Below are positions 1,620 to 53,134 of a stretch of DNA of 64,000 bases, one piece after another. Made by a program: the position numbers and the translations under genes. The stretch lies in the NCBI GenBank assembly GCA_000004985.1, contig GG738884.1; one strand, written 5' to 3'. Below the pieces are notes generated by a model. It was not told the origin of the DNA and did no database searches. It saw only the letters and a list, made by a program, of their open reading frames with translations. Position 1 is the stretch's first letter. Each line of letters begins with the position of its first letter. This DNA is from Naegleria gruberi (lineage: Eukaryota).

Positions 1620-3687
1620 TTAATCAAATAATCCAGAACTTCCTATCAAAGCTGGGGTTGAAGGAGAAAGTGGTTCCTCTACAACTGTACTGTCCATAGT
1701 TTTCTTTTCCTTTTCATATTCTGATTGAGAAATAATGACTCTAACAAGTTCAACATAACCATCTCCATTATTAGAATCAGGAGTACCTTCTTGTTTAACT
1801 CCTTCATTGTAAGAATAAGCTGCATGAGTAACATAGTGAACTCCATAGTTATTTTGAGGTGTACATTCACCACCACCAAAACCACCTCCTCCACCACCTT
1901 AATTGTCCAATAACACAAATAAAAATTGAAAATAATTGTTAAACTATAAAATTGAAAATGATGCTTACCTTCATACAAGCTACCACCTCCACCACCAAAA
2001 CCACCATTAGCTCCACAAGCATTACTGAAAGTTCCACCTTCACCACCATTCTTGAAACTCTTTCCACCAACACATTGATCGCCAGCACCTCCATCAATAA
2101 ACAAACCACCACCGCCACCGCCTCTGTCACCTTTAGCTGCCTTTTGACTTCTTGCTTCGGCTGGTCCTTTCGTATACACTTGTCCTCCCTTAATTAATGT
2201 TAATTTAAAAAACTCATTCCAAAATCATCATCTACTTACTGGTGATTGAACAGTCCAACTATACCAGTTGGCACCGTTACCTCCACCTCCAATAATAAGA
2301 GGCTTCATAGTATCACTATCAACAACAAAAGTACCACCACCACCTAATTGACCAACTTTTAACAAATCAAAATTGAAAATAATACTTACCACCTCCAGCG
2401 CCACATGAACTACCATTTGTACAGTCGCCACCAACTTGACCTACAAGAATGCTCAATTCTCTGCCTCTCTTCAAGTGAAAGACACCACTGACAATAGCTC
2501 CATATCCTTCTCTGAAAGTTGTAGTATATGTATTTTTACCACCTCTTGCACCAGCTGCAGTAATTTTGTAAAATCCAGTTGCTGGAACAACCCATTTTTG
2601 AATACCATTCTCCAATTTAACCTTATTCTTTAAGAATTTACAACTATCATATTGTGAGCCAATAACTGTTGGTCCGTTTTTGCCTGTAGCACCCAAGTTT
2701 GTAAACTTGATTGACATTCCTTTTGGAAGAAAGTCATATAATACACAATCTCTTTCACGAAAATTCTTATCTTCCTTATTCTCAATCATTGCAGGATTCA
2801 AATTGAATCTCATGGCTTCATAAAGCTTTGGGAAAATGACATCTCTCTTGGAAACCAAAAGTGGATGGGAATCAACTGTCGCCAAGACCTCTCCTTCAAC
2901 AATTGGGAATCTGATTTCACCCAAGAAATAGTCCAAATATTGCAATCTATTTTCCTTATCGTGCTCAATCCATCTCATCAAGGACTTGAATAAATTTCCT
3001 TCACTGCAAATGAGTTCCTTTCCAGCAAGCATGATCTTCAAGTCTTCAATTGGTAATTTAACAAAATGTTGACTTTCACAAACAGTATCAAAATCAGCAG
3101 AAATCTTAGTAAGAAGAGTCTTCTTTAAAGAGTTGATTTCTTTAAATTCTTCTAGGTATTGTGAGCAATTTTCCAAAAGAAGGAATGAAGAATCAGCATC
3201 AACAGCAGCATTTCTCATAATTTCAAGAGTCATCTCCTCAATTTCTTGCATTCCATAGGTATGAGCAAAAGTATACAAATCAATAAATTTATCCATTGTA
3301 TAATCTTTTGTGCAACCAAAATACACAACCTTTAAGAAAATTTCCAATCCAAGATCAGTCACCTGTGGCAACACAAGCTCCTTGCCAATCTCGAATTCTG
3401 GAACAAAAAGAAGTTCCTTGAGTTTTGTACTCCATTTTCCTACCTATGAACCATCATGATGTTCGGATCACACAATTAATATTACAATAACATACCAATG
3501 CTCTAAGAGCAGGAAATCTCTTTCCATTCTTACTGATCAATACGCAATCAGAAGCCTCTTCATCCAAATACAAGGATGAAATCATCGACAAGGTTTTTTC
3601 TGTACATTCAATGTAGGCCTCCTCGTCAATGGCTGTCTTTTGCACAGCACCACCACCACTAGAAGAAGAGCTAGATAATGACAACAT
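1620..3687 (-). CDS. BTB/POZ-BACK protein with a C-terminal ALK/LTK-type glycine-rich domain (GRD). Five exons on the minus strand: 3496..3687, 2390..3443, 2240..2355, 1969..2188, 1620..1897.
   Basis: The BTB core reads DCVLISKNGKRFPALRAL|VGKWSTKLKELLFVPEF across a 52-nt intron, followed by a BACK-like helical region. Then ITAAGARGG...GAIVSGVFHLKRGRELSILVGQVGG, GGGGTFVVDSDTMKPLIIGGGGNGANWY, GGFGGGGGSLYEG and ...GDGYVELVRV match the ALK glycine-rich domain signature (human ALK: ISGYGAAGGKGG...LYILVGQQGE...GGGGGGGGATYVF...PLIIAAGGGG...GGFGGGGGGC...GGGGGGYIGG). Introns are 34, 51 and 71 nt, all GTAAGT or GTATGT donors, and sit in phase 1 inside Gly codons. Confidence 0.7.
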
Positions 3688-3964: not shown

Positions 3965-4531
3965 ATGGGAAATAGTCAACTAAGAGAACCAAAAAGAACC
4001 GCTCACACTATTGTTGAAGAAGATTTACAAGTGGTATTGAAAGAACAGAATATTATTGAACCACATAACTATTCGAATCAAAACTATTATGACAGTGATT
4101 CAGAAGAATCAAGTTTGTCAACCTGTGGTTCCAACTATGAATATGTTGATCTTTCAGAATTTTGGAATCTTCCTACTGAAATTCAACTTTACACAATGAC
4201 ATTTCTTCCATTGAACAATTTTTCTCGAATTATTCGGGTGTCCAAATCACTTTCCAAAAACTTATTGGAATACAATGAATTATTTACCATATACTATTTG
4301 AATGATTTCAGACCAAGAGCGATTCAAGAAAGAAAATCCTGGGTTTCTTATAGCTGGCGAGATGATCCCCCAGAAAATGACTCTGCTCTCTTTCACCTTC
4401 CTCAATCAATTGATTCTTCTCAGTATTTTCAATCTTTAGGATTTTATGGAACTTTGAAAATTATTGTGGTTGAACATGTTAATGAGAGGAAAAGGAGACG
4501 AAAGCGGGCTAACATGCCACAACCAATGTAA
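3965..4531 (+). CDS. Small F-box-like protein with an N-terminal MGNSQ (possible N-myristoylation) motif.
   Basis: ORF of 188 aa. LPTEIQLYTMTFLPLNNFSRIIRVSKSL resembles an F-box, and a basic C-terminus (RKRRRKR) follows. Confidence 0.4.
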   Translation: MGNSQLREPKRTAHTIVEEDLQVVLKEQNIIEPHNYSNQNYYDSDSEESSLSTCGSNYEYVDLSEFWNLPTEIQLYTMTFLPLNNFSRIIRVSKSLSKNLLEYNELFTIYYLNDFRPRAIQERKSWVSYSWRDDPPENDSALFHLPQSIDSSQYFQSLGFYGTLKIIVVEHVNERKRRRKRANMPQPM

Positions 4532-7927: not shown

Positions 7928-8346
7928 TTTGAAAAGAATCAAAAAAAAAGTGAGAACAACAACAGCTGGAAGAGGCTAAACCACATTTTGTTGCACTTTA
8001 CTCTCGAGAGAACAATTACCAACAACAATCACAACAAGACAATATATGAACCATCAATTTTCTCATCCTTCCTCCCTGAAGAATACAAATAATAATAACC
8101 TGATACGAGCACCCTTCCTTTCACCTCCATCCAAAATAACACAACCAAAAACACATATTGATACTCCCGTGGTCACCCAGAGAACAATGTTCAATAATAA
8201 TCATCAACAGCATCACTCCTCACTACCATCAGGAACACAGGATGATAGTGTATTAAATAACAGAGACCGTTTACGAAGACAACACCTGAATAGACATAAT
8301 ATGCCCTCCACACCAACACTTGGAAAATCCAATCACTTTCAAGAGA

Positions 8347-10164
8347 ATGCCAATCCAACAACAACAACCTGGACAACCTGGTACTTCATTCACAATAGAA
8401 TTATCTACAGCACCAAAGAAAGGTCCACCACAACACTTGTTAGAACGTTTAAGTAAAAAGACAAGTGTAGCAAAGAGTGTCAAGGATTCCGAAATGGGTG
8501 ATGGAAACAATACACAAATGCAACAACCAGCCACAACAACAGCAGCAACTACTACTGGTAGTGCTAATAACACTGCAATCACAGCCAATCAGAGAAGACA
8601 AACTATTTTGGAATTCCAAAAGAGAAAGAGTACAACAGCAACAACTCTTAAAAATTCCCTCAATAAGCCAACACAAACTAATCCTCCTAATTTAACATAC
8701 ACTACCTTTGATACAAATGGTCTGACATTGGACGATGATTTGGAAATTGGATTTGAGAAATCTGGGTCTCCTATTGTTTCATTGAATGGATTGAATAGAG
8801 CCAGTCAGCCTTCTCCAAATAATTTTGCTTTTGGAGCTCAACAAAATGTAAATAGTCAACCAAACATTCCTGCTCAACAAGGTTTCCAACAACCACAACA
8901 ATTTGGTGGGTTCAATCAACAACAAGAGAATAATCAACCAAACCCTCAATGGCAAATTGAACAACAACAATTAGAACAACAGCAACGAGTGGCAGAACAA
9001 CAAAAGCTTGAACAGCAACAATTGGAGCAACAGAGAATGACAGAACAGCAAAGAGTTGCTGCTGAGCAACTCCTTCAACAACAACAATTGGAACAACAGA
9101 GAATGGCTGAGCAACAACGTTTAAGGGATCAGCAACAACAGCAACAATTGGATCAACTCAATGAGCAACAACGTGCTGCAGCAGAGCAACAAATTCTTCA
9201 ACAAAAGCAAATGGAACAACAAAGAATGCTAGATCAGCAACGTATTGAACAAGAAAAGCTTCAACAACAATTTGCTGAGCAACAACGTAATGCAGAACAG
9301 CAAAGAATTGCTGCCGAGCAACAACATTTGCTTCAACAACAACAAATGTGGCAAGCTCAACAAGTTTCCCATCAACCTCAACCTCAATCTCAAATGCAAT
9401 ATATTCCAGTTTACCAAACTGTTCCATCTGAAGAAGTTCAAAGAATGATTCATGAAGTGCAACGTCAACAGGCTGAATTCGAAAGACAAAGACAAGCCCA
9501 GATGGAAATAATTCAAAGAGAAAGAGCTGAACTTGAACTGGGAAGGGAATTGTTGAGGAGACAACAACTTGAACTCCAAGCCAAATTGAATGAAGTTGAT
9601 CAAATCAAGATGGGATTACCTCCATCAACTGAAAGAAGAAACTCGATCGATGCTCGTAGAAATGAAGTAGAAGCCAACAGAAATATCAAAAGAACAGCTC
9701 AAAGACAAGAGATTATTAAATCAAAGAGAGAACTTAACTTGCTTAATGTTGACAAATTGTCGAGAACCTCAAGAGAAATCAAGAGAGAAGAAAGAGAAGA
9801 AGAAAAGAAGAGAACTAGATCCATGTTACCAGAAGGCATTTTCTCACCACCAAGAGCCAAACCAACACTCTCAAGGCCATCCATGTATGGTTCAAGAACC
9901 ACTCCATCCTCCGTTACTAAATCAGATATCAGCACTGGTAGAAAAACAATTGAGACACCAACTTCTCTATACAGCCCTGCATCCTCAATGAGGGGAAGTA
10001 TTAGATCGAGTGTTTCGACATCTAAGTCCAACTCTAGGGAAATGGCTTCTCCATCAAACCAATTGAGTAAGAGAAAGCAAATGGTTTTGGAAAAGACAAG
10101 AAGAAAAGCAGAAGAATTTTCTCGTAAATCAACATCCAATAATAATACTCCATGTCAACATTAA
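8347..10164 (+). CDS. Gln-rich coiled-coil protein of about 606 aa. It may carry an N-terminal extension from the overlapping ORF 8046..8456 in another frame.
   Basis: First real ATG in the long ORF is at 8347. There are about 9 imperfect QQLEQQRMAEQQR-type repeats (8940-9400), then charged coiled coil and an S/T/R-rich tail. Upstream ORF 8046..8456 (MNHQF...) overlaps by 110 nt in a different frame. Confidence 0.5.
   Translation: MPIQQQQPGQPGTSFTIELSTAPKKGPPQHLLERLSKKTSVAKSVKDSEMGDGNNTQMQQPATTTAATTTGSANNTAITANQRRQTILEFQKRKSTTATTLKNSLNKPTQTNPPNLTYTTFDTNGLTLDDDLEIGFEKSGSPIVSLNGLNRASQPSPNNFAFGAQQNVNSQPNIPAQQGFQQPQQFGGFNQQQENNQPNPQWQIEQQQLEQQQRVAEQQKLEQQQLEQQRMTEQQRVAAEQLLQQQQLEQQRMAEQQRLRDQQQQQQLDQLNEQQRAAAEQQILQQKQMEQQRMLDQQRIEQEKLQQQFAEQQRNAEQQRIAAEQQHLLQQQQMWQAQQVSHQPQPQSQMQYIPVYQTVPSEEVQRMIHEVQRQQAEFERQRQAQMEIIQRERAELELGRELLRRQQLELQAKLNEVDQIKMGLPPSTERRNSIDARRNEVEANRNIKRTAQRQEIIKSKRELNLLNVDKLSRTSREIKREEREEEKKRTRSMLPEGIFSPPRAKPTLSRPSMYGSRTTPSSVTKSDISTGRKTIETPTSLYSPASSMRGSIRSSVSTSKSNSREMASPSNQLSKRKQMVLEKTRRKAEEFSRKSTSNNNTPCQH
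8940..9400 (+). repeat. Imperfect tandem coding repeat (about 39-45 nt unit) encoding Q-L-E-Q-Q-R-M/V-A-E-Q-Q.
   Basis: Repeated caacaacaattggaacaacagagaatg(a/g)ctgagcaacaacg units are visible directly in the sequence. Confidence 0.5.
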
Positions 10165-40571: not shown

Positions 40572-42560
40572 ATGGAACCATTCGATGATATTGTAACACC
40601 AACTAAAATGGAGGCACCGATCGACGATTTTACATCTGATCAAACACCACAAACACCGGGAAGTGCTATTGATTTTGGAGCCTTGAGTGGATTGGAAGTT
40701 GATGTGGCTGAGATTGAAAATCCAGATGCTGTTCAAGAAAAATTAGCCTCTCTCTACAATGTAGAGGAGTGCTCTGATATTGTATTTATAGTTAGGAATA
40801 GAAGATTTTTTGCTATCAAGGCTCTTGTGTGTGGTTGGAGTCCAGTTTTCAAGTCAATGCTATGTGGAGAGTTCATTGAATCAAGTTTAAGAGAAGTTCC
40901 TTTGGATGATGTTGAAGAAACTAGTATGGAAATGTTTTTGAAGGTTATTTATTCTGGAAAGACTGGTCCATATCCAATTCATAATTTTGTTGATCTATAT
41001 GCATTTGCTAATAGATTTGAAGTTCCAGAAATTGAAAAACTCTGTCTCACTGCATTACAAGAACAAAATTTGGCCAAACACTTATTCCCATTGATTGATG
41101 CTTGTGAAAAGTATATTGATCTCGAAGAAATTGAAAAGATTAGAACCGAAGTTGTAGCCAAAATTTGTTGTGAATTTGATGAAGTTTGTTCTAGACCTGA
41201 CTTTGTGAATATGCGTATTGATTACTTGTTGAGATTCTTAAAATCTGGAATTATTGTCATTCCAGAAGATGTTTTATTCAATTCTTTAATGCGTTGGATT
41301 GTACACGATAAGGAGCAAAGAATTCAATACTTGGATGAATTATTGTCCTTTATTAGATTCCCAATGATGGAATCTGTTGCATTGACAGAAATAGAAAACC
41401 ATCCTCTTCTCCAAGATAAGATGGATGAAATGAAATCCATTATTTACGAAGCAATGAAATTCCAATTGAACAAGGATGCCATTCCAGAAGAAAGAAGAGT
41501 TCATGAAAACTTTAAAGAAAGAGAAGGCCCACCAGAGGAAGATGGACATTCCTACAAGTACAAGAAGGTCTTTACTTTGACATCTCTTGGTTGTACAGGA
41601 AGCGTCAAACCAACAAGTATTGGAACTCATTATGACAAGCATCTTTCCAAAGTAATTACTCTCAAGAATGGTATTCAAGAATGGAAAGTTCATGCTAGTG
41701 GAAAATATAGAATAACTGCAGTTGGTGCATCTGGAGGAATCAACCCACATACCACCAATACTAAGGGTGGTAAGGGAGCCAAAGTGAGTGGAATTTTCAA
41801 ACTCAAGAGAGGTCAACTTATCCAAGTATTAGTTGGTCAAAAAGGAGGTAAGTTGAACTATTTAATAATAATCGGTCTAAACAATTGTTAAGAGGATGCC
41901 ACAGGTAGTACTGGCGGTGGAGCTGCAGGAGGTAAGTTGTTCATTATTTGAATGAGGATGTTAATTAACAATTTTCAGGTGGTGGAGGTACATTTGTAGT
42001 GGATGGAGAATTGCAACAACCATTGATAATTGGAGCTGGAGGTAGCGGGGCAAATTGGTATTCATTTACCATCGATGGACCTGGTGGTCAATTATACGAT
42101 CCTTCAATTGAATCAACCAAGTCGGTTGAAGCTTATGCAGAAAGAGGAGGTGGCGGCGGTGGATTTTATATTAAGGGTGCTAATGGTTCATCTTGCACTG
42201 GTGGTGCCAGCTTTTTAGAAGGTGGGTCTGGAGGTACTAACTCAACTAGTACTTATGGAGCTAAAGGTAAGTAACACAAGAAATTTGATTGAATTGATTT
42301 ATTCTCTTAAAGGTGGATTTGGTGGAGGTGGTGGTTCTGAGCACGAAGGTGGTGGTAAGTAATTTTTTTATTATCCTATTGAATTATTAACTTTTCAAGG
42401 TGGTGGAGGTTATGTTGGAGGCAAGTCACTCAAATCTAATGAATATAACACTTCTCGTCCTGATTATGGTGCCTATTCTTTCAATTCTGGTTTAAAGCCA
42501 GAAGGTGAACCAGCTTGTCACGTTGGTGATGGTTATGTTGAATTTGCCAGAGTTTTCTAA
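40572..42560 (+). CDS. BTB/POZ-BACK protein with a C-terminal ALK/LTK-type glycine-rich domain; paralogue 2. Five exons: 40572..41847, 41893..41931, 41979..42266, 42313..42354, 42400..42560.
   Basis: BTB: DIVFIVRNRRFFAIKALVCGWSPVFKSMLCGEF. GRD: ITAVGASGGINPHTTNTKGGKGAKVSGIFKLKRGQLIQVLVGQKG | EDATGSTGGGAAG | GGGTFVVDGELQQPLIIGAGGSGANWY...GGGGGGFYIKGANGSSCTGGASFLEGGSGG | GGFGGGGGSEHEGG | GGGGYVGG...GDGYVEFARVF. All four introns are 45-47 nt, GTAAGT donors, phase 1 within GG(T/A) Gly codons. Confidence 0.7.
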
Positions 42561-42895: not shown

Positions 42896-44100
42896 ATGAG
42901 CAGCGAAAAGTTTGTTGCCTTTGTGGATCCATCCAAGTTGGAATTTAAAATCATTAATGATGATGATTTATCGTCGAGTACAATGTTAGAATCGATGGAT
43001 TCATCATCCGCAATGTTATCGTCATCATCATCATACGGATCGATGGAAGAGGGATTTTCTTCCGAATCTATTTTGGAACAATATTTGACTTTGTCTAATC
43101 CGTATGATAGTGTATTGAGTTTTAAAATTGAATGTAATAAGCCTGCACACTATTCTTTGAAAATACCAGCAGGAAGTATTGAACCGAAAACGGAATTTAA
43201 AATGTACGTTTTATTATTAAAACAAAATAATAATTGTCGATCGGAAATAGTAAATTAAAGATGAAACCTGCTTTTTTAAATGATATTCGTAAGCGGGGAA
43301 GAAAGAATCAAGCCATGGTTGAGGAAGTTGAACAATATGAAGATGCATTTCAAGTTAAATTTATTAGAACAAGTGATTCGAAAGAAACTTCTAAAATCAT
43401 CAAATCAAATATTAAGGTTATTTATAAACCGACTCCAATTGTATCAACACCATCACCATTACTGGAATCGACTAATTCTCTCCTAGACAGTACGATTGAA
43501 ATTGTTAAACCAGTTGAGGAAAAGGTTGAATCTCCAGCCAAAACAAAAATTGTAATTGTAGAAGATCACTTCCAAACATCTTTACTGAAAGATGTTGACT
43601 CTAAACAAGTTGAACTACCACCAACTATTAGTATTAGTACTCCACCTTATACACCTCCACCTACTCCAAATGTGCGAGATTCGAGAATGATTGTTGAAGA
43701 AATGTTTGAGGATAAATTTGCCGAGTCCAACAATGATTTGATTACAACTGAGGAAAATTTAAATGTTAGAACTGAATCACCAATGACATCTGATTCAGTA
43801 ACATCTGATGAATATCTTCAATTAAGCAAAAAGAAAAGTTCTAGCACAATTGATGACGGTGAAAAGTCATCTGATAAGAAGAAGCTCAAATCAATCTTGA
43901 AGAAGACTCCTCCACCTCCAAAGGAAAAATCCTTGAAGGATATGATAACAGATTTATTCCCACTCTTGGCTGGATTGATAATTCTTGTAATATTTGCCAA
44001 GTTCAACAGAGTTGATTATGATACAGTTGTGAATATGTTTACATCCTATCTGCTTGGTGTTTGTGCCATGTATGTTCAAATGAAGTTTAATGAGGAATAG
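42896..44100 (+). CDS. VAP-like tail-anchored protein: an MSP domain with a Ser-rich insertion, a long P/S/T-rich linker and a C-terminal TM. Two exons: 42896..43204 and 43261..44100.
   Basis: MSP-like FVAFVDPSKLEFKI...LTLSNPYDSVLSFKIECNKPAHYSLKIPAGSIEPKTEFKM. A 56-nt GTACGT...ATTAAAG intron follows. The TM is LFPLLAGLIILVIFAKF, near the C-terminus. Confidence 0.5.
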
Positions 44101-44300
44101 TTATTTAAAAATCATAAGGATATTGTGAATAAACAAATAATTGTGAAATGTATAAATTATCAGAACCTTTGGGTTCATATTTATTGATCCTTTTGGTTCT
44201 TGACTATACAATAGTATGCAATAATCCTAAATCTCTGAAGCTCTTAATCAAAACCCAACATTACAATCAAAATAAGATTGTGTTCAAAAAAGTGTCCTGA

Positions 44301-47090: not shown

Positions 47091-50000
47091 TTACTCTACA
47101 ACATCTTGCCACATTTCCTCAATTTCATAAATGGCTTCAAGAATTTCTGAAAAGTCAGGTCTGATATTTTCATCAGTTGCCCAACATGTCTTCATCAATT
47201 CTGTGTACTTATCAACAAGTGGGATCAATAGATTGGAACTGGTCAATTCTACTCTATTCTTTTGCTTATTACAGAATAAATACCATTCACATTTTAGGGT
47301 ATCTTCGTCTTGCTCGAATTCGGACGAGTCGTTTTGAATTTGGAGTGCATTGTTTCTTACTGAGCTTATTTCCCATGGAATGACTGGTCTTCTGCCCTGA
47401 ATAACTTCACTACCAATAGAGAAGATACTCATCATATCAGAGCCTATAAATGTAGTATGACCTGATGTGTCAGAGCTTGTCAAATCAGAAATTTGTGAAC
47501 CACTATTAGATTCAGTACTAATTCCAATACTAGACCTTTCCTTCTTGGTGAGGGGAGATTTTGGAAGTTCTGTATATGGTTGTACCATGAAGAATAATTC
47601 ATACATGAGGATGGCAAAACTGAAAACATCACATTTGACTGTATATCTTCTAGATTGCTTGAGGATTTCTGGACTTGTGTATTGGATAGTACCATAACAA
47701 ACACCAGTCATTGTGAGTGAAGACAATGGCTTTGACACACCAAAGTCACAAACCTTACAATTGCCAGCTTCATCTATGAGAACATTTTGAGGTTTCTATT
47801 ACAAAAAATTAATTAAGAGTATTCAATTTGAATACTTACCAAATCTCTGTGAATGATAGGTGGTTTAGTGTTATGTAAATAAATCAAAGCTCTACAAATA
47901 TCCTTCAATATTTCAAGTTTTCTTCCAAATGTAATAATTTCATTTCTAGCCTTCCTCTTCTTAGGATAGATGATCTTGTCCAAACTTCCACCTTTTACAA
48001 ACTCAGTTACGATATACTTGTTATCCTCGTCCACACTGACACCAATAAGTAAGACAACATTAGGGTGTCTCAATCCTGTTAAAATATTAGCTTCATGTTC
48101 AAAGTTTTCATCATCATCACAACCAAATTGGTTAGATTTGATTCTCTTGACAGCAACTTCAGTACCTTTCCAAGAAGCTCTGAAAATAACACCTCCAGCA
48201 CCTTCTGAAACTCTCTCCTTGAATTCCAAATCTTCAATTGGAATCAAATGGGCAGATGTATTTGTAGAGTCCATTGAAGAATAGAAACTTGATTTAGTGT
48301 TGTGCTCGAGAAGTTTAGATAACATTTCATCTTCTGCCTTCTTCTTTCTCTTGAGAGTTTGTGATTGTCTTCTAAACATGAAAGCAAATATACCCAATGG
48401 TATAGCAACCACAAGAATTATCAAAATACCAGCTACAATTAGAATTGGAACAATAACACAAGCAGCATATGAAGTGTTTCCATTCGTGAATGTTGGTAAA
48501 CCCAGTGGACAAGAAGTACATTTGACAGCACCTTTCAAATCAGAGTAAGTAGAAAATGGACAAATTTCACATTGTAAATCTCCATTAAGGAAGAAACCCT
48601 CCTTACAGTATACGCAAATAGATAAATTCTTAGAACCAGCACTTTCTGTAGTCATACCTGTTGGACAAGAATAACAAACAGGAGAACCAGTAGAGTTTGA
48701 ATAAGTTCCAATTGGGCACAATTTACAATCTCCTTCTGATTCGGATCCACTATTTGGTTGGAATGTTCCAGCAACACAAGCTGTACATTCCTTTTGACCC
48801 ATAGTATTAGCATAAGTACCAGGAAGGCAAGGAACACAACTGGTAGAGTTGGATGAACCCTCATTTGGATTAAAGGTTCCAAGTGTGCATTTTGAGCAAA
48901 TAGAGGCACCCTCCTTTTCAGAGTATGATCCAGCTGAGCAAGGTTTACAATCTGATGCTTGATAACTGTTCATATTAGAGTTTGCTGTACCTGCTGCACA
49001 CTTGGTACAATGAGGAGCTCCAGGATTTGCGCTAAAAGTACCAGTCGAGCATGGCAAACATGACATTGAACTATTTTGACCAAATAGTGGTTGATAGGTA
49101 CCTTTTTCACAGAGTGTACATTGATATTGTTGCATTAGATCTGCGTATTGACCTGTAGGGCAAGGAAGACATTTCTTTAAACCAGTCACAGGTGCAAATG
49201 TACCAATTGGACAAGCTGTACAATTTAAAACTTGTCCAGTAGTATTTGAAAAAGATCCTTTTGGACATGAGTCGCACAATCTCTGTCCAATTGTTTTTCC
49301 AAAAGTACCAGGTTCACATGGAATACATGAAGAAGGATAAATAGAACCCATTACAGGATTGTGGGTTGAAATAGGACATGGAATACATGAAGAAGCTCCT
49401 ACATAAGGATTGTATTGTCCATAAGGACAAGGTGTACAGGTTTCATTTGAGAAGGCAGAAAGCTCATCACTTGCTGTACCTGCAGGACAATGATAACATT
49501 GTTCATCCTTAAACATAATTGTATAAATTGTTGGTAAACTTGGAAGGGTTCTATTGTAGAATGAAACAACATAGGCCTTATTTGATTCGCTGTATGCCGA
49601 ATAAATAGCTCCATAAACTGTATCTTTGGATTTTTCAATAATAGTTTCCTTATACCATCTTTCTCTATTTCTAACACAATACTTGGAAGCGAAAAATCTA
49701 GATCTGACTTCATTGGGATTACCAACATTACTACCACCTGGTCGAATAACTCCAGATACGTAGGTGAAACCACTTGAATCTACATCAAATGTTGTATTGT
49801 AAACGTTTTGGAAAGTAAGCATTGATTGCAAGAAACCATTTGAATCAGTTTTAGCAAGGAAAAAATTTCTATCAAAAGAGCTGGTTACATTTTGCCCTTG
49901 GAATGATACATAACTACCAAACTCGCCAGAAAAGAGAATATTTCTATTTGGATCAAACTTGAGAAGACTGCTGAACTCTGAAGTGAAGAATTGGTCAGAA

Positions 50001-53000
50001 GTGATCATATTGTCATCCTTACTACTGTTAGTAGTAATTGTTTGCATCCATAATATCTTTCTGTTACCGGTTGTTTGGTCTAGTGGACCAAACTTGAGTA
50101 AATAGTAAGAGAGTACTTCTGAATTGTGATTGATTATTTGCAAATCCTCAAACCTGACTGCACTCTTGAAAACACCAGAAATTACAACATTTCCTACAGA
50201 ATCTGGTAATACAGAGAACCCTTTAGACATACCCTCACTAGTGGCTATCCACAAACAAACCATATTAAAAGGCTCAATTTCAAATACTATAGTGTTAACA
50301 AGAGAAGAAGAAGTTGTAGTACAGCTAGGATCAATTTCAACGCTTCCTCTATATCCTCCAGTGATTAAAATTGATAAATCTTCAGTTATTCTAATAGATT
50401 CAGGGATTACGTTGATAAACTCCTTTCTTACTTGAATTCTTCCTTCATTGATTTTTAACATTACACCTGTGAATTGTGTAGCTCCATAATTTTGTTTGGC
50501 TTTCCATCCAACAACCCAAGTGTTATCAAACCTGTCAGTAGCAACACTGGTTACAGTAATTCCATCTGTAGAATTGGTTTGATCTGAGAGAGTAGCAAAG
50601 TAGTTGAAGCTTTCAGCATCCAAAACCGATGAAAACCTGACAGAAATTCCATTCAAAGGACCTCTTGGACTTGTAGAAATACCAAAGCCTGTATATGAAA
50701 TACTACCATGTCTACCAAAAGAAATGTAGAGTGAAGGAACTGTTCCATATAAAAAGATTGGACTCACAATTTTGTCTGCATCTGTTTGATTTACCAAATA
50801 CGAGCCGACTCCACAACTAGTAAATCCTTGCACAATTTCAGAGCCACAATTTTCACCAGTATAGTTAGTATAACACTTGCAAACATCTTTAGCAACACAA
50901 GCTCCGTGAGAAGCACATACAGACATATTGGTTGCGTCAACCCCAAAGCAATTAGCAATTTCGCAATTCTTTCCTGTGTAATTCTCATTACAAATACAAT
51001 AGTCAGGAAAAGCACATCGTCCATTGCCTGAACAGGTCTGCACATCATTTTGTGGAATGTCAAAGCATACAGGATACTGACATGACTCACCAGCAAATGT
51101 TCCCAAGCTACAAGAACAAGAATTTGGTCTAACACATTTTCCTCTTCCTGTACATGCTCTTGTATCATCTTGAGAGTAAAATCCACATAAAGGAATAGTA
51201 CAAAGTATATCACTACACTTATTACAACCCTCTGTAACAGTTGAAACTAGTGTATTAATGAAGCCTACAGGGCTAACAACAGTACTTGGATCTCCAATTA
51301 CTTGCACATTACCACTGAAAGAAGCAGACACATAGAACTGTCTTGGAGTCCTTGCATCGGTCGATAACATTAATGGTTGAGTGGCTATCAAGGATCCCTT
51401 AATGAAAGAGTGAATGTAGGTTTGTTTGAGTTGTACATTTGTACTATCGCCAGTGTTAACAAATTTTTGGGCAAAGAGAGTGATTGAGCTTTGAACACCA
51501 AAGGTTATAAAACTATCCCAATCAATATTAGAGTAGACATTACCATTCTTTCCGATAACTACAAGCTCATTGTAATTGTTTGCTCGAATTTTAACACCAA
51601 AATATGGATTATCATATTGAACTAGATGAGCTATAAGACTTCCATCGTCTATTGATACTTGGGAAATGATACTACTAAAATTCGAAAGTTGAACATTAAT
51701 TAGCATAACATCACCCAAAAATGTTATATCTTCCACAGATTTTGCTCCATCAATTTCAATAATTTGTGACCAAATTTCTTGATCGGTAGTCTTGAAAGCA
51801 TCGTAGCAAACAATATAAACTTGGTGAACTGTTCCAACATCTGTCAACATGGTTTCCATGGTACCTGCAATGAAAACTCTGTCCTTCTTAGGAGATAAGG
51901 TAATCAAATGAGCTGAAGAAGAACCATAAAGATAGGATGGTAAAGGATCTACTTTAGTGGCATAAATTACCTTTCCAGTTGTGTTGGAGAGGGCACCATA
52001 GAATACAGAGCTTTGTTTTCTAGATTCTAAAACAACTCCAACATCCACAAAAGTTAATTTGGCATTAAATACTCCTGTAAAATATAGTGTTCCATCTTGG
52101 CCGTAAGTAACATCCTTAACTATGTTCATAGCCACACTACCCATAATTGTATTTGGCATAATAATGGCAGGTGGAGGGAAAATGGGTTGAGGGAGCTCAG
52201 CTTCCTTATTAATTGCTGGTTGATCCAAAATATTATCCAGATCAAATTGGAATAACATTAGTGTTGATTTAGATTCGTATTGGGTTTTTGCAATTTCCAA
52301 ATATTGAGGCAATTCACCTCCCAATGCTACTCTCCTTTTCCCATTATGATCAAGCTTAGCCATCGTGTATAAATAGTATTTGGTGTTTCTTGTAACTATT
52401 CCAACTTTGAAAAGTCTAAACATGTTACTATTTTCATAAATTACCCAATACCCTTGAGTAACACCAGCTGAAATCTCTGCTACGACCTCATCAGCCACTG
52501 CCACATCAGACCCTGAAAAGTGCCCGATTGTATAAATTCGATTCTCATCACTCACCAATTTTCTTTGATCTACCTGCAAAGTAGACAGGAAATCAAATCT
52601 GGCTCCTTTCTCTTCAGGCGATGCACCTCGAATAAAACTCATTCTAGTTGATGTAATAGTTCTGTTTCTAATAATCATTGGATGAAGAAAATCTTTACTG
52701 CAGTCAACCACATGGTTTGGATTTTCGCTATCTGGATCCAGAGATACATACGAATTATAGAATAATCTCTTGTCAATGATACCATTCTCGGTTGATGCAC
52801 AACTCGCAAGACTAAATAAATAATTATGTAATATAAGTATTATACATAGAACAATAATGATTTTTCCAATTCCTCGATTATTATTATTATTATGATTTAC
52901 AACATTTAACCCTTCCAATTTTGATAATCCAATAATATTTGTTGTTCTTTCTCGATTATGATAATGATTGAACCAGGTTGATGAAAATTTATTTTTCTTC

Positions 53001-53134
53001 TTATCCTGTTGTTCTTGTTCTTGTTGTATCTGATGATGGTGCGATATTGATGATGAACAAGGAGTTTCATCATCAGAAGAGAAAAGTAACAGCGGTGATA
53101 GTAGTGTTTCGCCTCCAAGTAGAAGCAGAGACAT
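47091..53134 (-). CDS. Giant TKL-family receptor Ser/Thr kinase of about 2000 aa. It contains an N-terminal globular region, 4 EGF/tenascin-type repeats, a second beta-rich region, at least 12 GCC2/GCC3-type Cys repeats, a TM helix, and a kinase split by one 44-nt intron. Exons: 47840..53134 and 47091..47795.
   Basis: EGF-like: CTGRGKCVRPNSCSCSLGTFAGESC... Repeats of CxPCPxGxYxxxxGxxxC (for example CTPCPYGQYNPYVGASSCIPCP). TM: VIVPILIVAGILIILVVAIPLGIFAFMF. Kinase: GAGGVIFRASWKGTEVAVKRI, HRDL|KPQNVLI (intron GTAAGT...GTAATAG), CDFGVSK, GTIQYTSPE. Confidence 0.7.

What the first reader, a model, noticed from the sequence alone, without database searches (positions are those of the whole stretch)
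40572..42560. Second BTB-BACK-GRD paralogue with an extra 39-nt micro-exon
This gene has the same architecture as the gene at 1620..3687, about 37 kb away on the opposite strand. It has an additional 13-codon exon (41893..41931, EDATGSTGGGAAG) flanked by 45- and 47-nt introns. Donor and acceptor phases are conserved between the paralogues, and protein identity is high in the BTB and GRD blocks. This argues for a real, expanding family and not an assembly artefact.
Basis: seen in the sequence. Interest (0 to 1): 0.65.

Follow-up and report, generated by a model that had tools for sequence, protein, structure and literature searches.

The report
Annotated Naegleria BTB-BACK-GRD gene, extra intron
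This is a real, already annotated Naegleria gruberi gene for a probable ubiquitin-ligase adaptor carrying an ALK-like glycine-rich domain; its 39-base "micro-exon" is ordinary conserved coding sequence cut off by one species-specific extra intron, not new sequence.

Summary
The window is Naegleria gruberi. My spliced model of 40572..42560 (+), with five exons and 601 aa, is 100% identical to the deposited protein XP_002674389.1 (NAEGRDRAFT_80637). The 39-nt exon 41893..41931 is therefore already in the public annotation. The gene at 1620..3687 (-) is XP_002674458.1 (615 aa). The two proteins are 45% identical (E 9e-157), and both are BTB + BACK + ALK/LTK glycine-rich ("TG") domain proteins. 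An AlphaFold model (pLDDT 85.7) matches the LTK/ALK TG domain (target TM-score 0.74) and Cul3-adaptor BTB-BACK structures.

(1) The micro-exon adds no residues. EDATGSTGGGAAG aligns without gaps to conserved residues of every homologue, including "EDACPST" of human ALK. What is extra is one intron (41848..41892), found in only 1 of 8 heterolobosean genes, so a lineage-specific gain is most likely. (2) Intron positions are mostly not shared. One is identical, one is 2 codons off and four are gene-specific. The phase similarity reflects a general phase-1 bias (25 of 30 introns) in Gly-rich coding sequence. (3) The family is not expanding. N. gruberi shows two members, each with a 1:1 N. fowleri orthologue.

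The likely function is a Cul3 substrate adaptor that uses the TG domain as receptor. This is inferred, not shown. The finding is ordinary and of low interest.

The parts
40572..41847 (+). Gene 2 exon 1 (codons 1-425 plus 1 nt). It encodes a disordered acidic N-terminus, BTB (aa 62-165 = 40755..41066), BACK (aa 187-273 = 41130..41390), a linker, and the TNF-like half of the TG domain (from about aa 331 = 41562).
   Evidence: Spliced model identical to XP_002674389.1; Pfam hits; AF2 model.
41848..41892 (+). Gene 2 intron 1: 45 nt, phase 1, GTAAGT...CTAAAC...AAG. It is specific to N. gruberi gene 2 and is the feature that creates the micro-exon. If retained it gives an in-frame stop (…GGKLNYLIIIGLNNC*).
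   Evidence: Absent from the 7 other heterolobosean genes mapped.
41893..41931 (+). Gene 2 exon 2: the 39-nt micro-exon (aa 426-438, EDATGSTGGGAAG). It lies at the junction of the TNF-like half and the first polyglycine stretch of the TG domain.
   Evidence: Conserved as EDAKGGTGGGAAG (N. fowleri), ENAVGGTGGGAAG (L006), GDCTNGSSCGAGG (gene 1) and EDACPST (human ALK). G435 and G438 are invariant in the family alignment. pLDDT is about 86-95.
41932..41978 (+). Gene 2 intron 2: 47 nt, phase 1, splits a GGT Gly codon. This is an ancient intron.
   Evidence: The same or a neighbouring position in the Gly run (±2-3 codons) is occupied in 7 of 8 heterolobosean genes.
41979..42266 (+). Gene 2 exon 3 (288 nt), the central glycine-rich part of the TG domain.
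42267..42312 (+). Gene 2 intron 3: 46 nt, phase 1. This is the second intron specific to N. gruberi gene 2.
42313..42354 (+).
42355..42399 (+). Gene 2 intron 4: 45 nt, phase 1. This ancient intron is at an identical position in N. fowleri P0002 and metagenomic L006, and 2 codons away in the gene 1 lineage.
42400..42560 (+). Gene 2 exon 5, including the TAA stop at 42558..42560.
1620..3687 (-). Gene 1, the paralogue (615 aa, XP_002674458.1 / NAEGRDRAFT_70448). Exons: 3687-3496, 3443-2390, 2343-2240, 2188-1969, 1897-1620. Introns: 3495-3444, 2389-2344, 2239-2189, 1968-1898.

Best explanation
Window 40572..42560 is the annotated N. gruberi gene NAEGRDRAFT_80637. It has five exons and encodes a 601-aa intracellular protein made of BTB, BACK and a C-terminal TNF-like/glycine-rich ('TG', PF12810) domain of the kind that forms the ligand-binding region of ALK/LTK. 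SHOWN: the gene model, the domains, the fold and the paralogy with 1620..3687. Also shown: the 39-nt exon encodes conserved core residues of the TG domain, and its upstream intron (41848..41892) is present in only this one of eight related genes, whereas its downstream intron is ancient. INFERRED (about 0.85): the micro-exon arose when a new phase-1 intron was gained in the N. gruberi lineage, 39 nt upstream of the ancient intron. A second gene-specific intron (42267..42312) made a 42-nt exon in the same way. Both micro-exons are constitutive, because skipping or retaining them would remove invariant residues or introduce a stop. INFERRED (about 0.55): the protein works as a substrate adaptor of a Cullin-3 RING ligase. 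In this model the BTB dimer, the phi-x-E loop and the BACK/3-box bind Cul3, and the TG domain takes the place of a Kelch propeller as the substrate- or ligand-binding module.
For: Gene model: identical to XP_002674389.1. Domains: BTB 60.2, BACK 54.7 and PF12810 46.6 bits, all above the curated cut-offs; ALK at E 3e-16 and KLHL3 at E 2e-12 by sequence. Fold: AF2 pLDDT 85.7; Foldseek gives LTK TG 7nx1 at E 4e-18, target TM-score 0.74, plus ALK 7lrz/7n00 and C. elegans ALK 7lir. The N-terminal half matches KBTBD2-CUL3, KLHL11-Cul3 and SPOP. Micro-exon residues are conserved in all homologues and in ALK. Intron map: the upstream intron occurs in 1 of 8 genes and the downstream one in 7 of 8. On the NJ tree, one gain competes with at least 4 losses. 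Retaining intron 1 gives a stop. An alternative in-frame acceptor at 41904 would delete the conserved EDAT. Adaptor model: KLHL3's Cul3-contact M-S-E aligns to F-I-E in gene 2. There is no signal peptide or TM segment, with maximum hydropathy 1.3. The TG domain is C-terminal in several other E3-type scaffolds: B-box (Willaertia, N. lovaniensis), RING-B-box (metagenomic P0265; amphioxus P0081, where the RING/B-box part is from Pfam and the TG part from the 8e-27 match to gene 1), BTB (Skoliomonas) and Kelch-BTB. TG-type domains are receptor or ligand binders in ALK/LTK and in phage tail fibres (PMC9608196; PMC10605310).
Against: No transcript data could be consulted, so splicing of the micro-exon rests on annotation, canonical signals and conservation. 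Intron gain is a parsimony argument over eight genes, and no closer N. gruberi-clade genome was available. No source for the new intron was found. Cul3 binding, dimerisation and any TG ligand are untested, and I did not check for a Cul3 gene in N. gruberi. The paralogue (gene 1) has E-F-E instead of phi-x-E, and its BTB hit is weak (23.4 bits), so the adaptor model may not hold for both genes.
Confidence: 0.75

Rival explanations
1. The micro-exon is ancestral. The upstream intron was present in the family's common ancestor and was lost independently in all other lineages.
For: Intron loss is common in intron-poor protists (general knowledge). The family's introns are clearly in flux: N. fowleri P0002 has 8 and Willaertia P0006 has 1.
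Against: This needs at least 4 independent exact losses (N. fowleri orthologue, L006, the gene 1 lineage, the Willaertia clade) on the tree, against one gain.
Confidence: 0.1
2. The 39-nt exon is a regulated cassette, or intron 1 is a regulated retained intron. Skipping stays in frame, and retention gives a truncated BTB-BACK-TNFL protein or an NMD target.
For: 39 nt is a multiple of 3, and the skipped product reads through (…VGQKGGGGGTFVV…). Retention yields a 439-aa ORF.
Against: The 13 residues include family-invariant glycines and the conserved E-D motif shared with ALK, and they are confidently modelled inside the domain. The homologues encode them constitutively inside larger exons. There is no transcript evidence either way.
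Confidence: 0.1
3. The 45-nt interruption is a disabling insertion and gene 2 is a pseudogene.
For: Unspliced, the reading frame hits a stop.
Against: The insert has a perfect GTAAGT 5' site, a CTAAAC branch-like motif and a 3' AG, and its length is typical of the neighbouring introns. The rest of the CDS is intact and 65% identical to its N. fowleri orthologue with gapless GRD alignment.
Confidence: 0.03
4. Functional rival: the protein is not a Cul3 adaptor. The BTB-BACK part only oligomerises, and the polyglycine-II bundle has a structural or other role (for example scaffold, ice or surface binding, or a pathogen-recognition decoy).
For: Many BTB proteins do not bind Cul3 (general knowledge). 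Gene 1 and its N. fowleri orthologue lack the phi-x-E motif. Glycine-rich PPII bundles also occur in antifreeze proteins and enzymes (bioRxiv 10.1101/2023.11.25.568672).
Against: Gene 2 keeps phi-x-E and a BACK domain. Its closest BTB-BACK structures are all Cul3 adaptors, several solved in complex with Cul3. The recurrent fusion of TG to RING/B-box and BTB scaffolds fits a substrate-receptor role.
Confidence: 0.3

Closest known systems
BTB-BACK-Kelch Cul3 substrate adaptors (KLHL3 4hxi, KLHL11 4ap2, KBTBD2 8gq6) and SPOP
   Same: The N-terminal BTB + BACK architecture. Sequence matches reach E 7e-13 and Foldseek matches about 1e-11. The phi-x-E Cul3-contact motif is preserved in gene 2 (F-I-E vs M-S-E).
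   Different: The C-terminal Kelch propeller (or MATH in SPOP) is replaced by a TNF-like/glycine-rich TG domain. Gene 1 lacks the phi-x-E motif. Cul3 binding is untested.
TG (TNF-like + glycine-rich) supradomain of ALK and LTK receptor tyrosine kinases (PF12810; PDB 7nx1, 7lrz, 7n00, 7lir)
   Same: The same domain by Pfam score, by sequence (E 3e-16) and by predicted fold (target TM-score up to 0.74, 29% identity). The conserved motifs LVGQ-GED, GGGGGT(F/Y)V and GGFGGGGG…GGGGGGY(I/V)GG are all present.
   Different: There is no signal peptide, TM helix, EGF-like module or kinase domain, and the predicted location is intracellular. ALK has an insertion of about 28 residues after EDACPST that is absent here. 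The UniRef name 'receptor protein-tyrosine kinase' is a misnomer.
TRIM-like B-box/RING proteins with a C-terminal TG domain (Willaertia P0009, N. lovaniensis XP_044556082.1, amphioxus 'TRIM33-like' P0081, metagenomic P0265)
   Same: The same TG domain sits in the C-terminal position that normally holds the substrate-binding module of an E3 ligase. Within Heterolobosea the TG domains are closely related (53-54% identity).
   Different: The N-terminal scaffold is different (B-box / RING instead of BTB-BACK). No N. gruberi counterpart appeared in my searches.
Phage tail-fibre tips with TNF-like + polyglycine domains (Pam3 gp24, S16 gp38)
   Same: A TNF-like sandwich extended by a polyglycine lattice that is used for receptor recognition. 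The authors report it as structurally similar to C. elegans ALK (PMC9608196).
   Different: These are trimeric, extracellular virion proteins. I did not test sequence relatedness to the Naegleria proteins.
Micro-exons of animals and plants
   Same: A very short internal exon (39 nt; also 42 nt in the same gene) flanked by canonical introns.
   Different: There is no evidence of regulated inclusion. Here the micro-exon is a by-product of an extra intron in intron-dense Gly-rich coding sequence. The N. fowleri orthologues have 33-nt exons and even a 6-nt exon elsewhere in the same domain.

Membership tests
PF12810 ALK/LTK glycine-rich (TG) domain family | Score above Pfam's gathering threshold across the domain | tested here: met
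   Gene 2: 46.6 bits vs 24.5, profile positions 7-238 of 243. Gene 1: 24.6 vs 24.5, which is borderline.
PF12810 ALK/LTK glycine-rich (TG) domain family | TNF-like beta-sandwich plus polyglycine bundle fold | tested here: met
   AF2 model with pLDDT mostly above 85 in aa 331-600. Foldseek: LTK TG 7nx1 at E 4e-18, target TM-score 0.74; ALK and C. elegans ALK also match. This is a prediction, not an experimental structure.
ALK/LTK receptor tyrosine kinases | Signal peptide, transmembrane helix and cytoplasmic tyrosine-kinase domain | tested here: not met
   No kinase hit in Pfam. Maximum 19-residue hydropathy is 1.3, and the N-terminus is acidic and disordered. The protein is not a member, despite its UniRef name.
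BTB-BACK Cul3 substrate adaptors | BTB domain followed by a BACK domain | tested here: met
   Pfam BTB 60.2 and BACK 54.7 bits for gene 2; 23.4 and 59.9 bits for gene 1. Structural matches to KBTBD2, KLHL11 and SPOP.
BTB-BACK Cul3 substrate adaptors | phi-x-E motif in the BTB loop that contacts Cul3 | tested here: met
   For gene 2, F-I-E aligns to M-S-E of KLHL3. It is not met in gene 1 (E-F-E) or in N. fowleri P0004 (D-F-T).
BTB-BACK Cul3 substrate adaptors | Physical binding to Cul3 and a Cul3 orthologue in the genome | not tested
   The tools hold no searchable N. gruberi genome or proteome, and no interaction data exist. A literature search gave nothing relevant.
BTB-BACK Cul3 substrate adaptors | C-terminal Kelch / MATH / other known substrate-binding domain | tested here: not met
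   The C-terminus is a TG domain, with no Kelch or MATH hit. This would be a variant adaptor class.
Micro-exon (internal exon of 51 nt or less) | Short internal exon with canonical splice sites on both sides that keeps the reading frame | tested here: met
   39 nt at 41893..41931, between GTAAGT…AAG and GTAAGT…CAG introns. The spliced CDS is identical to the deposited protein.
Micro-exon (internal exon of 51 nt or less) | Inclusion confirmed by transcript junctions | not testable with these tools
   No RNA-seq or EST resource was available.

The most novel reading that the evidence does not exclude
The TG (TNF-like/polyglycine) module, known functionally only as the extracellular ligand-binding region of metazoan ALK/LTK and as a phage tail-fibre tip, is an ancient portable recognition domain. 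Protists such as Naegleria, Willaertia and Skoliomonas, and also amphioxus, would use it inside the cell as the substrate receptor of Cul3-BTB and TRIM-type ubiquitin ligases. The Naegleria pair would then be founding members of an undescribed class of CRL3 adaptors, and the ALK ligand-binding region would descend from this older pool.
Probability: 0.4. Interest if true: 0.5.

Novelty: already known. Interest (0 to 1): 0.22.

Why it matters
For the scan, this finding can be closed. The gene, its 39-nt exon and its domain content are already in GenBank and UniProt. The 'extra micro-exon' and 'expanding family' readings do not hold. Two modest points remain. First, there is a clean example of lineage-specific intron gain, twice in one gene and each time about 40 nt upstream of an ancient intron, in an intron-poor protist. 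It lies in Gly-rich coding sequence where G|GT sites abound. Second, the ALK/LTK ligand-binding fold recurs as the C-terminal module of E3-ligase scaffolds in distant eukaryotes. I found no paper describing this, and it offers a testable idea about the domain's original role.

Tried and rejected
(1) The new intron as a copy of its older neighbour. Intron 1 vs intron 2 is 72% identical (98th percentile of 253 short-intron pairs; shuffle z 2.9), but clearly non-homologous pairs score as high or higher (76%, 72.5%; z 3.0-3.75). Intron 3 vs intron 4 is unremarkable (83rd percentile). No conclusion can be drawn.
(2) Origin of the new introns by tandem duplication of exon sequence. There is no significant similarity to the flanking exons (p 0.05-0.97).
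(3) Introner-like mobile element. Only chance matches of 18 nt or less occur elsewhere in the 64-kb window.
(4) Further copies in the window. tblastn finds only the two genes.
(5) Genome-wide count using a profile of the TNF-like half. The search returned only short fragments (175 aa or less) and no N. gruberi protein, so it was uninformative. The count of two rests and is not exhaustive.
(6) Literature. There were no papers for the locus tags or accessions, for Naegleria + BTB + glycine-rich, or (relevantly) for PF12810. Naegleria + cullin + BTB gave nothing relevant.
(7) Assembly artefact or recent duplicate. Rejected on 45% identity, different intron sets and separate orthologues.
(8) Synteny for gene 1. 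No conserved neighbour was found within ±3 kb of the N. fowleri orthologue.
Full report
IDENTITY OF THE WINDOW AND THE GENE MODEL. The region is AT-rich (about 35% G+C) with short GTAAGT…AG introns. I spliced 40572-41847 / 41893-41931 / 41979-42266 / 42313-42354 / 42400-42560 and obtained an intact 601-aa ORF. A database search returned a deposited protein that is 100% identical over 100% of its length. It is 'predicted protein [Naegleria gruberi]', XP_002674389.1 / EFC41645.1 / NAEGRDRAFT_80637 / UniProt D2VNE6, on a 363,092-bp contig. The gene at 1620..3687 (-) splices as 3687-3496 / 3443-2390 / 2343-2240 / 2188-1969 / 1897-1620. This gives 615 aa, identical to XP_002674458.1 / NAEGRDRAFT_70448 on the same contig. 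The public annotation already contains all of it.

PARALOGY AND DOMAINS. The two proteins align at 45% identity over 575 residues, E 9e-157. By block, identity is BTB 39%, BACK 43%, the TNF-like half 52% and the Gly-rich half 55%. Pfam finds BTB, BACK and PF12810 (ALK/LTK glycine-rich domain) in both. All hits exceed the curated cut-offs, though BTB (23.4 bits) and PF12810 (24.6 vs 24.5) are borderline in gene 1. The precomputed public annotation lists only BACK for gene 1. By sequence, the C-terminal 270 residues match the ALK and LTK extracellular ligand-binding fragments (E 3e-16), and the N-terminal half matches KLHL3, KBTBD2, SPOP and KLHL11. An AlphaFold2 model built on 26 homologues has mean pLDDT 85.7. 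Only the first ~44 residues and a linker at 324-330 are disordered. Foldseek places the C-terminal half on the LTK TG domain (7nx1, E 4e-18, target TM-score 0.74) and on human and C. elegans ALK. It places the N-terminal half on Cul3-bound BTB-BACK adaptors. Neither protein has a hydrophobic signal or TM segment. tblastn finds only these two copies in the window.

WHAT THE MICRO-EXON REALLY IS. In pairwise and multiple alignments the 13 micro-exon residues align without gaps to residues 403-415 of gene 1 (GDCTNGSSCGAGG), which lie inside that gene's large exon 2. They also align to EDAKGGTGGGAAG in N. fowleri, ENAVGGTGGGAAG in a metagenomic relative, and the start of 'EDACPST' in human ALK. 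G435 and G438 are invariant in the family, and the segment is modelled with pLDDT of about 86-95. No coding sequence has been added, and both genes have five exons. What differs is where the introns sit.

To compare intron positions I reconstructed exact exon maps for seven relatives:
- N. fowleri P0002, the orthologue of gene 2, with 8 introns.
- N. fowleri P0004, the orthologue of gene 1, with 6 introns.
- Three Willaertia magna genes.
- A complete gene on metagenomic contig L006, closest to gene 2.

On the eight-gene alignment, the intron downstream of the micro-exon (phase 1, in the AAGG|GGG run) is present in 7 of 8 genes. The upstream intron (41848..41892) is present only in N. gruberi gene 2. 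The same is true of intron 3 (42267..42312).

An NJ tree gives (N. gruberi g2, N. fowleri P0002) 200/200, plus L006 200/200, and (g1, P0004) 200/200. Willaertia forms a separate clade with 135/200. On that tree each gene-2-specific intron needs one gain or at least four losses. I therefore infer two intron gains in the N. gruberi lineage.

If intron 1 is left unspliced, the frame stops after 14 codons. An alternative in-frame acceptor at 41904 would delete the conserved EDAT. Skipping the exon keeps the frame but would remove invariant residues. The annotated splice pattern is thus the only one that preserves the conserved domain. No transcript data were available to me, so this remains an inference.

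INTRON PHASES. Gene 2 introns lie at codon/phase 426/1, 439/1, 535/1 and 549/1; gene 1 introns lie at 65/0, 416/1, 451/0 and 524/1. Position 439 equals 416 exactly. Positions 549 and 524 are two codons apart within a hexaglycine run, and that offset is conserved within each orthologue pair. The remaining four introns are unshared. Across the eight genes, 25 of 30 introns in the TG-coding part are phase 1. In the two N. gruberi genes these mostly split G|GT glycine codons. The phase resemblance is therefore a property of Gly-rich coding sequence rather than evidence of positional homology.

ORIGIN OF THE NEW INTRONS (unresolved). Both new introns sit about 40 nt upstream of an older intron. Intron 1 is 72% identical to intron 2 (98th percentile of 253 short-intron pairs), but clearly unrelated pairs score as high. 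The introns share GTAAGT and a TTAAC-like branch motif, so this is not evidence of copying. I found no similarity to flanking exons and no further copies in the window.

FAMILY SIZE. Two full-length searches found only these two N. gruberi proteins, each with a single N. fowleri orthologue, and 4-5 members in Willaertia. Gene 2 also keeps its downstream neighbour in N. fowleri: window 42896-44121 matches L001 6245-7608. An exhaustive HMM search of 1.84 billion representatives found very few proteins matching the whole BTB-BACK-TG profile. These were the Naegleria and Willaertia clusters, Skoliomonas TZLM1-RC, a Kelch-BTB-TG metagenomic protein and fragments. The TG domain alone is common, with 288 representatives at E ≤ 1e-30, many of them giant multi-copy bacterial proteins. 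The duplication is old (before the N. gruberi/N. fowleri split) and the family is small, not expanding. The count is not exhaustive, because the N. gruberi genome itself could not be searched. A profile of the TNF-like half returned only fragments.

HOW IT PROBABLY WORKS (inference). BTB-BACK proteins are typically Cul3 substrate adaptors. Gene 2 preserves the phi-x-E Cul3-contact motif: F-I-E aligns to M-S-E of KLHL3. Its best structural matches are adaptors solved with Cul3. The position normally held by a Kelch propeller is taken by the TG domain. The same domain occupies the C-terminal slot of other E3 scaffolds:
- B-box-coiled-coil in Willaertia and N. lovaniensis.
- RING-B-box in amphioxus TRIM-like proteins and in a metagenomic protein.
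- BTB in Skoliomonas.
- UBA-Kelch-BTB in a metagenomic protein.

In ALK/LTK and in phage tail fibres, TG-type domains bind ligands or receptors. The most economical model is therefore an intracellular CRL3 adaptor whose TG domain recognises the substrate. Some caveats apply. Gene 1 and its orthologue lack phi-x-E. Neither Cul3 binding nor the presence of Cul3 in N. gruberi was tested. Polyglycine-II bundles also serve unrelated roles.

COMPARISON AND NOVELTY. The protein is a member of the PF12810 domain family by score and by predicted fold. It has the BTB-BACK architecture of Cul3 adaptors. It is not an ALK/LTK receptor kinase, because it has no signal peptide, TM segment or kinase domain. 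The UniRef name 'receptor protein-tyrosine kinase' is an automatic misnomer. I found no paper on these loci or on BTB-TG proteins. Even so, the gene model and domain hits are public, so the finding as stated is already known and ordinary. The residual interest lies in two points: the tidy double intron gain, and the hypothesis that the ALK ligand-binding fold is an old E3-ligase recognition module.

Noticed in passing
window 42313..42354 (+): Gene 2 has a second micro-exon (exon 4, 42 nt). Like the first, it is created by a gene-2-specific intron (42267..42312) lying about 40 nt upstream of an ancient intron. The repeated 'new intron about 40 nt upstream of an old one' pattern is unexplained.
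   Followed up: partly
L002 4705..4710 (N. fowleri orthologue of gene 1): The deposited N. fowleri protein can only be reproduced with a 6-nt exon (CTGGAG) between two GTAAGT…CAG introns of 85 and 63 nt. That exon restores the conserved 'GGSGANW', and no single-intron solution exists.
   Followed up: partly
L001 4263..4295 and 4367..4399 (N. fowleri orthologue of gene 2): There are two consecutive 33-nt exons in the TNF-like half. The same sequence is continuous in N. gruberi, so micro-exons recur in this family at different places.
   Followed up: partly
TG-coding parts of window genes 1 and 2 and loci L001-L006: 25 of 30 introns are phase 1. In the two N. gruberi genes most of them split G|GT glycine codons, suggesting that poly-Gly coding sequence is a hotspot of proto-splice sites.
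   Followed up: partly
window 1620..3687 (-): Gene 1 is under-annotated publicly (only BACK precomputed; 'Predicted protein'). Its BTB is divergent (23.4 bits) and lacks the phi-x-E Cul3-contact motif (E-F-E), as does its N. fowleri orthologue (D-F-T). This hints at functional divergence between the paralogues.
   Followed up: partly
window 40572..42560 (+): UniRef names D2VNE6 'receptor protein-tyrosine kinase', although the protein has no kinase domain, signal peptide or TM segment. The annotation appears to have been transferred from the ALK GRD hit.
   Followed up: yes
window 42896..44121 (+): The gene downstream of gene 2 has no Pfam hit for its longest ORF (43234-44100). It is conserved and syntenic with the gene downstream of the N. 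fowleri orthologue (L001 6245-7608).
   Followed up: partly
window 47813..53134 (-): A 1773-aa ORF carries ephrin-receptor-like cysteine-rich repeats, EGF-like modules and a protein kinase domain. It is a receptor-kinase-like gene about 5 kb from gene 2 and is unrelated to it.
   Followed up: no
window 8320..10164 (+), repeat at 9007..9136: A long ORF with no Pfam hit contains a 66-nt x2 tandem repeat. It coincides with the unusual AT skew (0.34) and higher G+C of the 8-10 kb bin.
   Followed up: no
P0239 (N. lovaniensis XP_044556082.1) and P0009 (Willaertia): Heterolobosea also have a B-box-coiled-coil-TG protein. No N. gruberi counterpart appeared in any search, so it may be absent or unannotated.
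   Followed up: no
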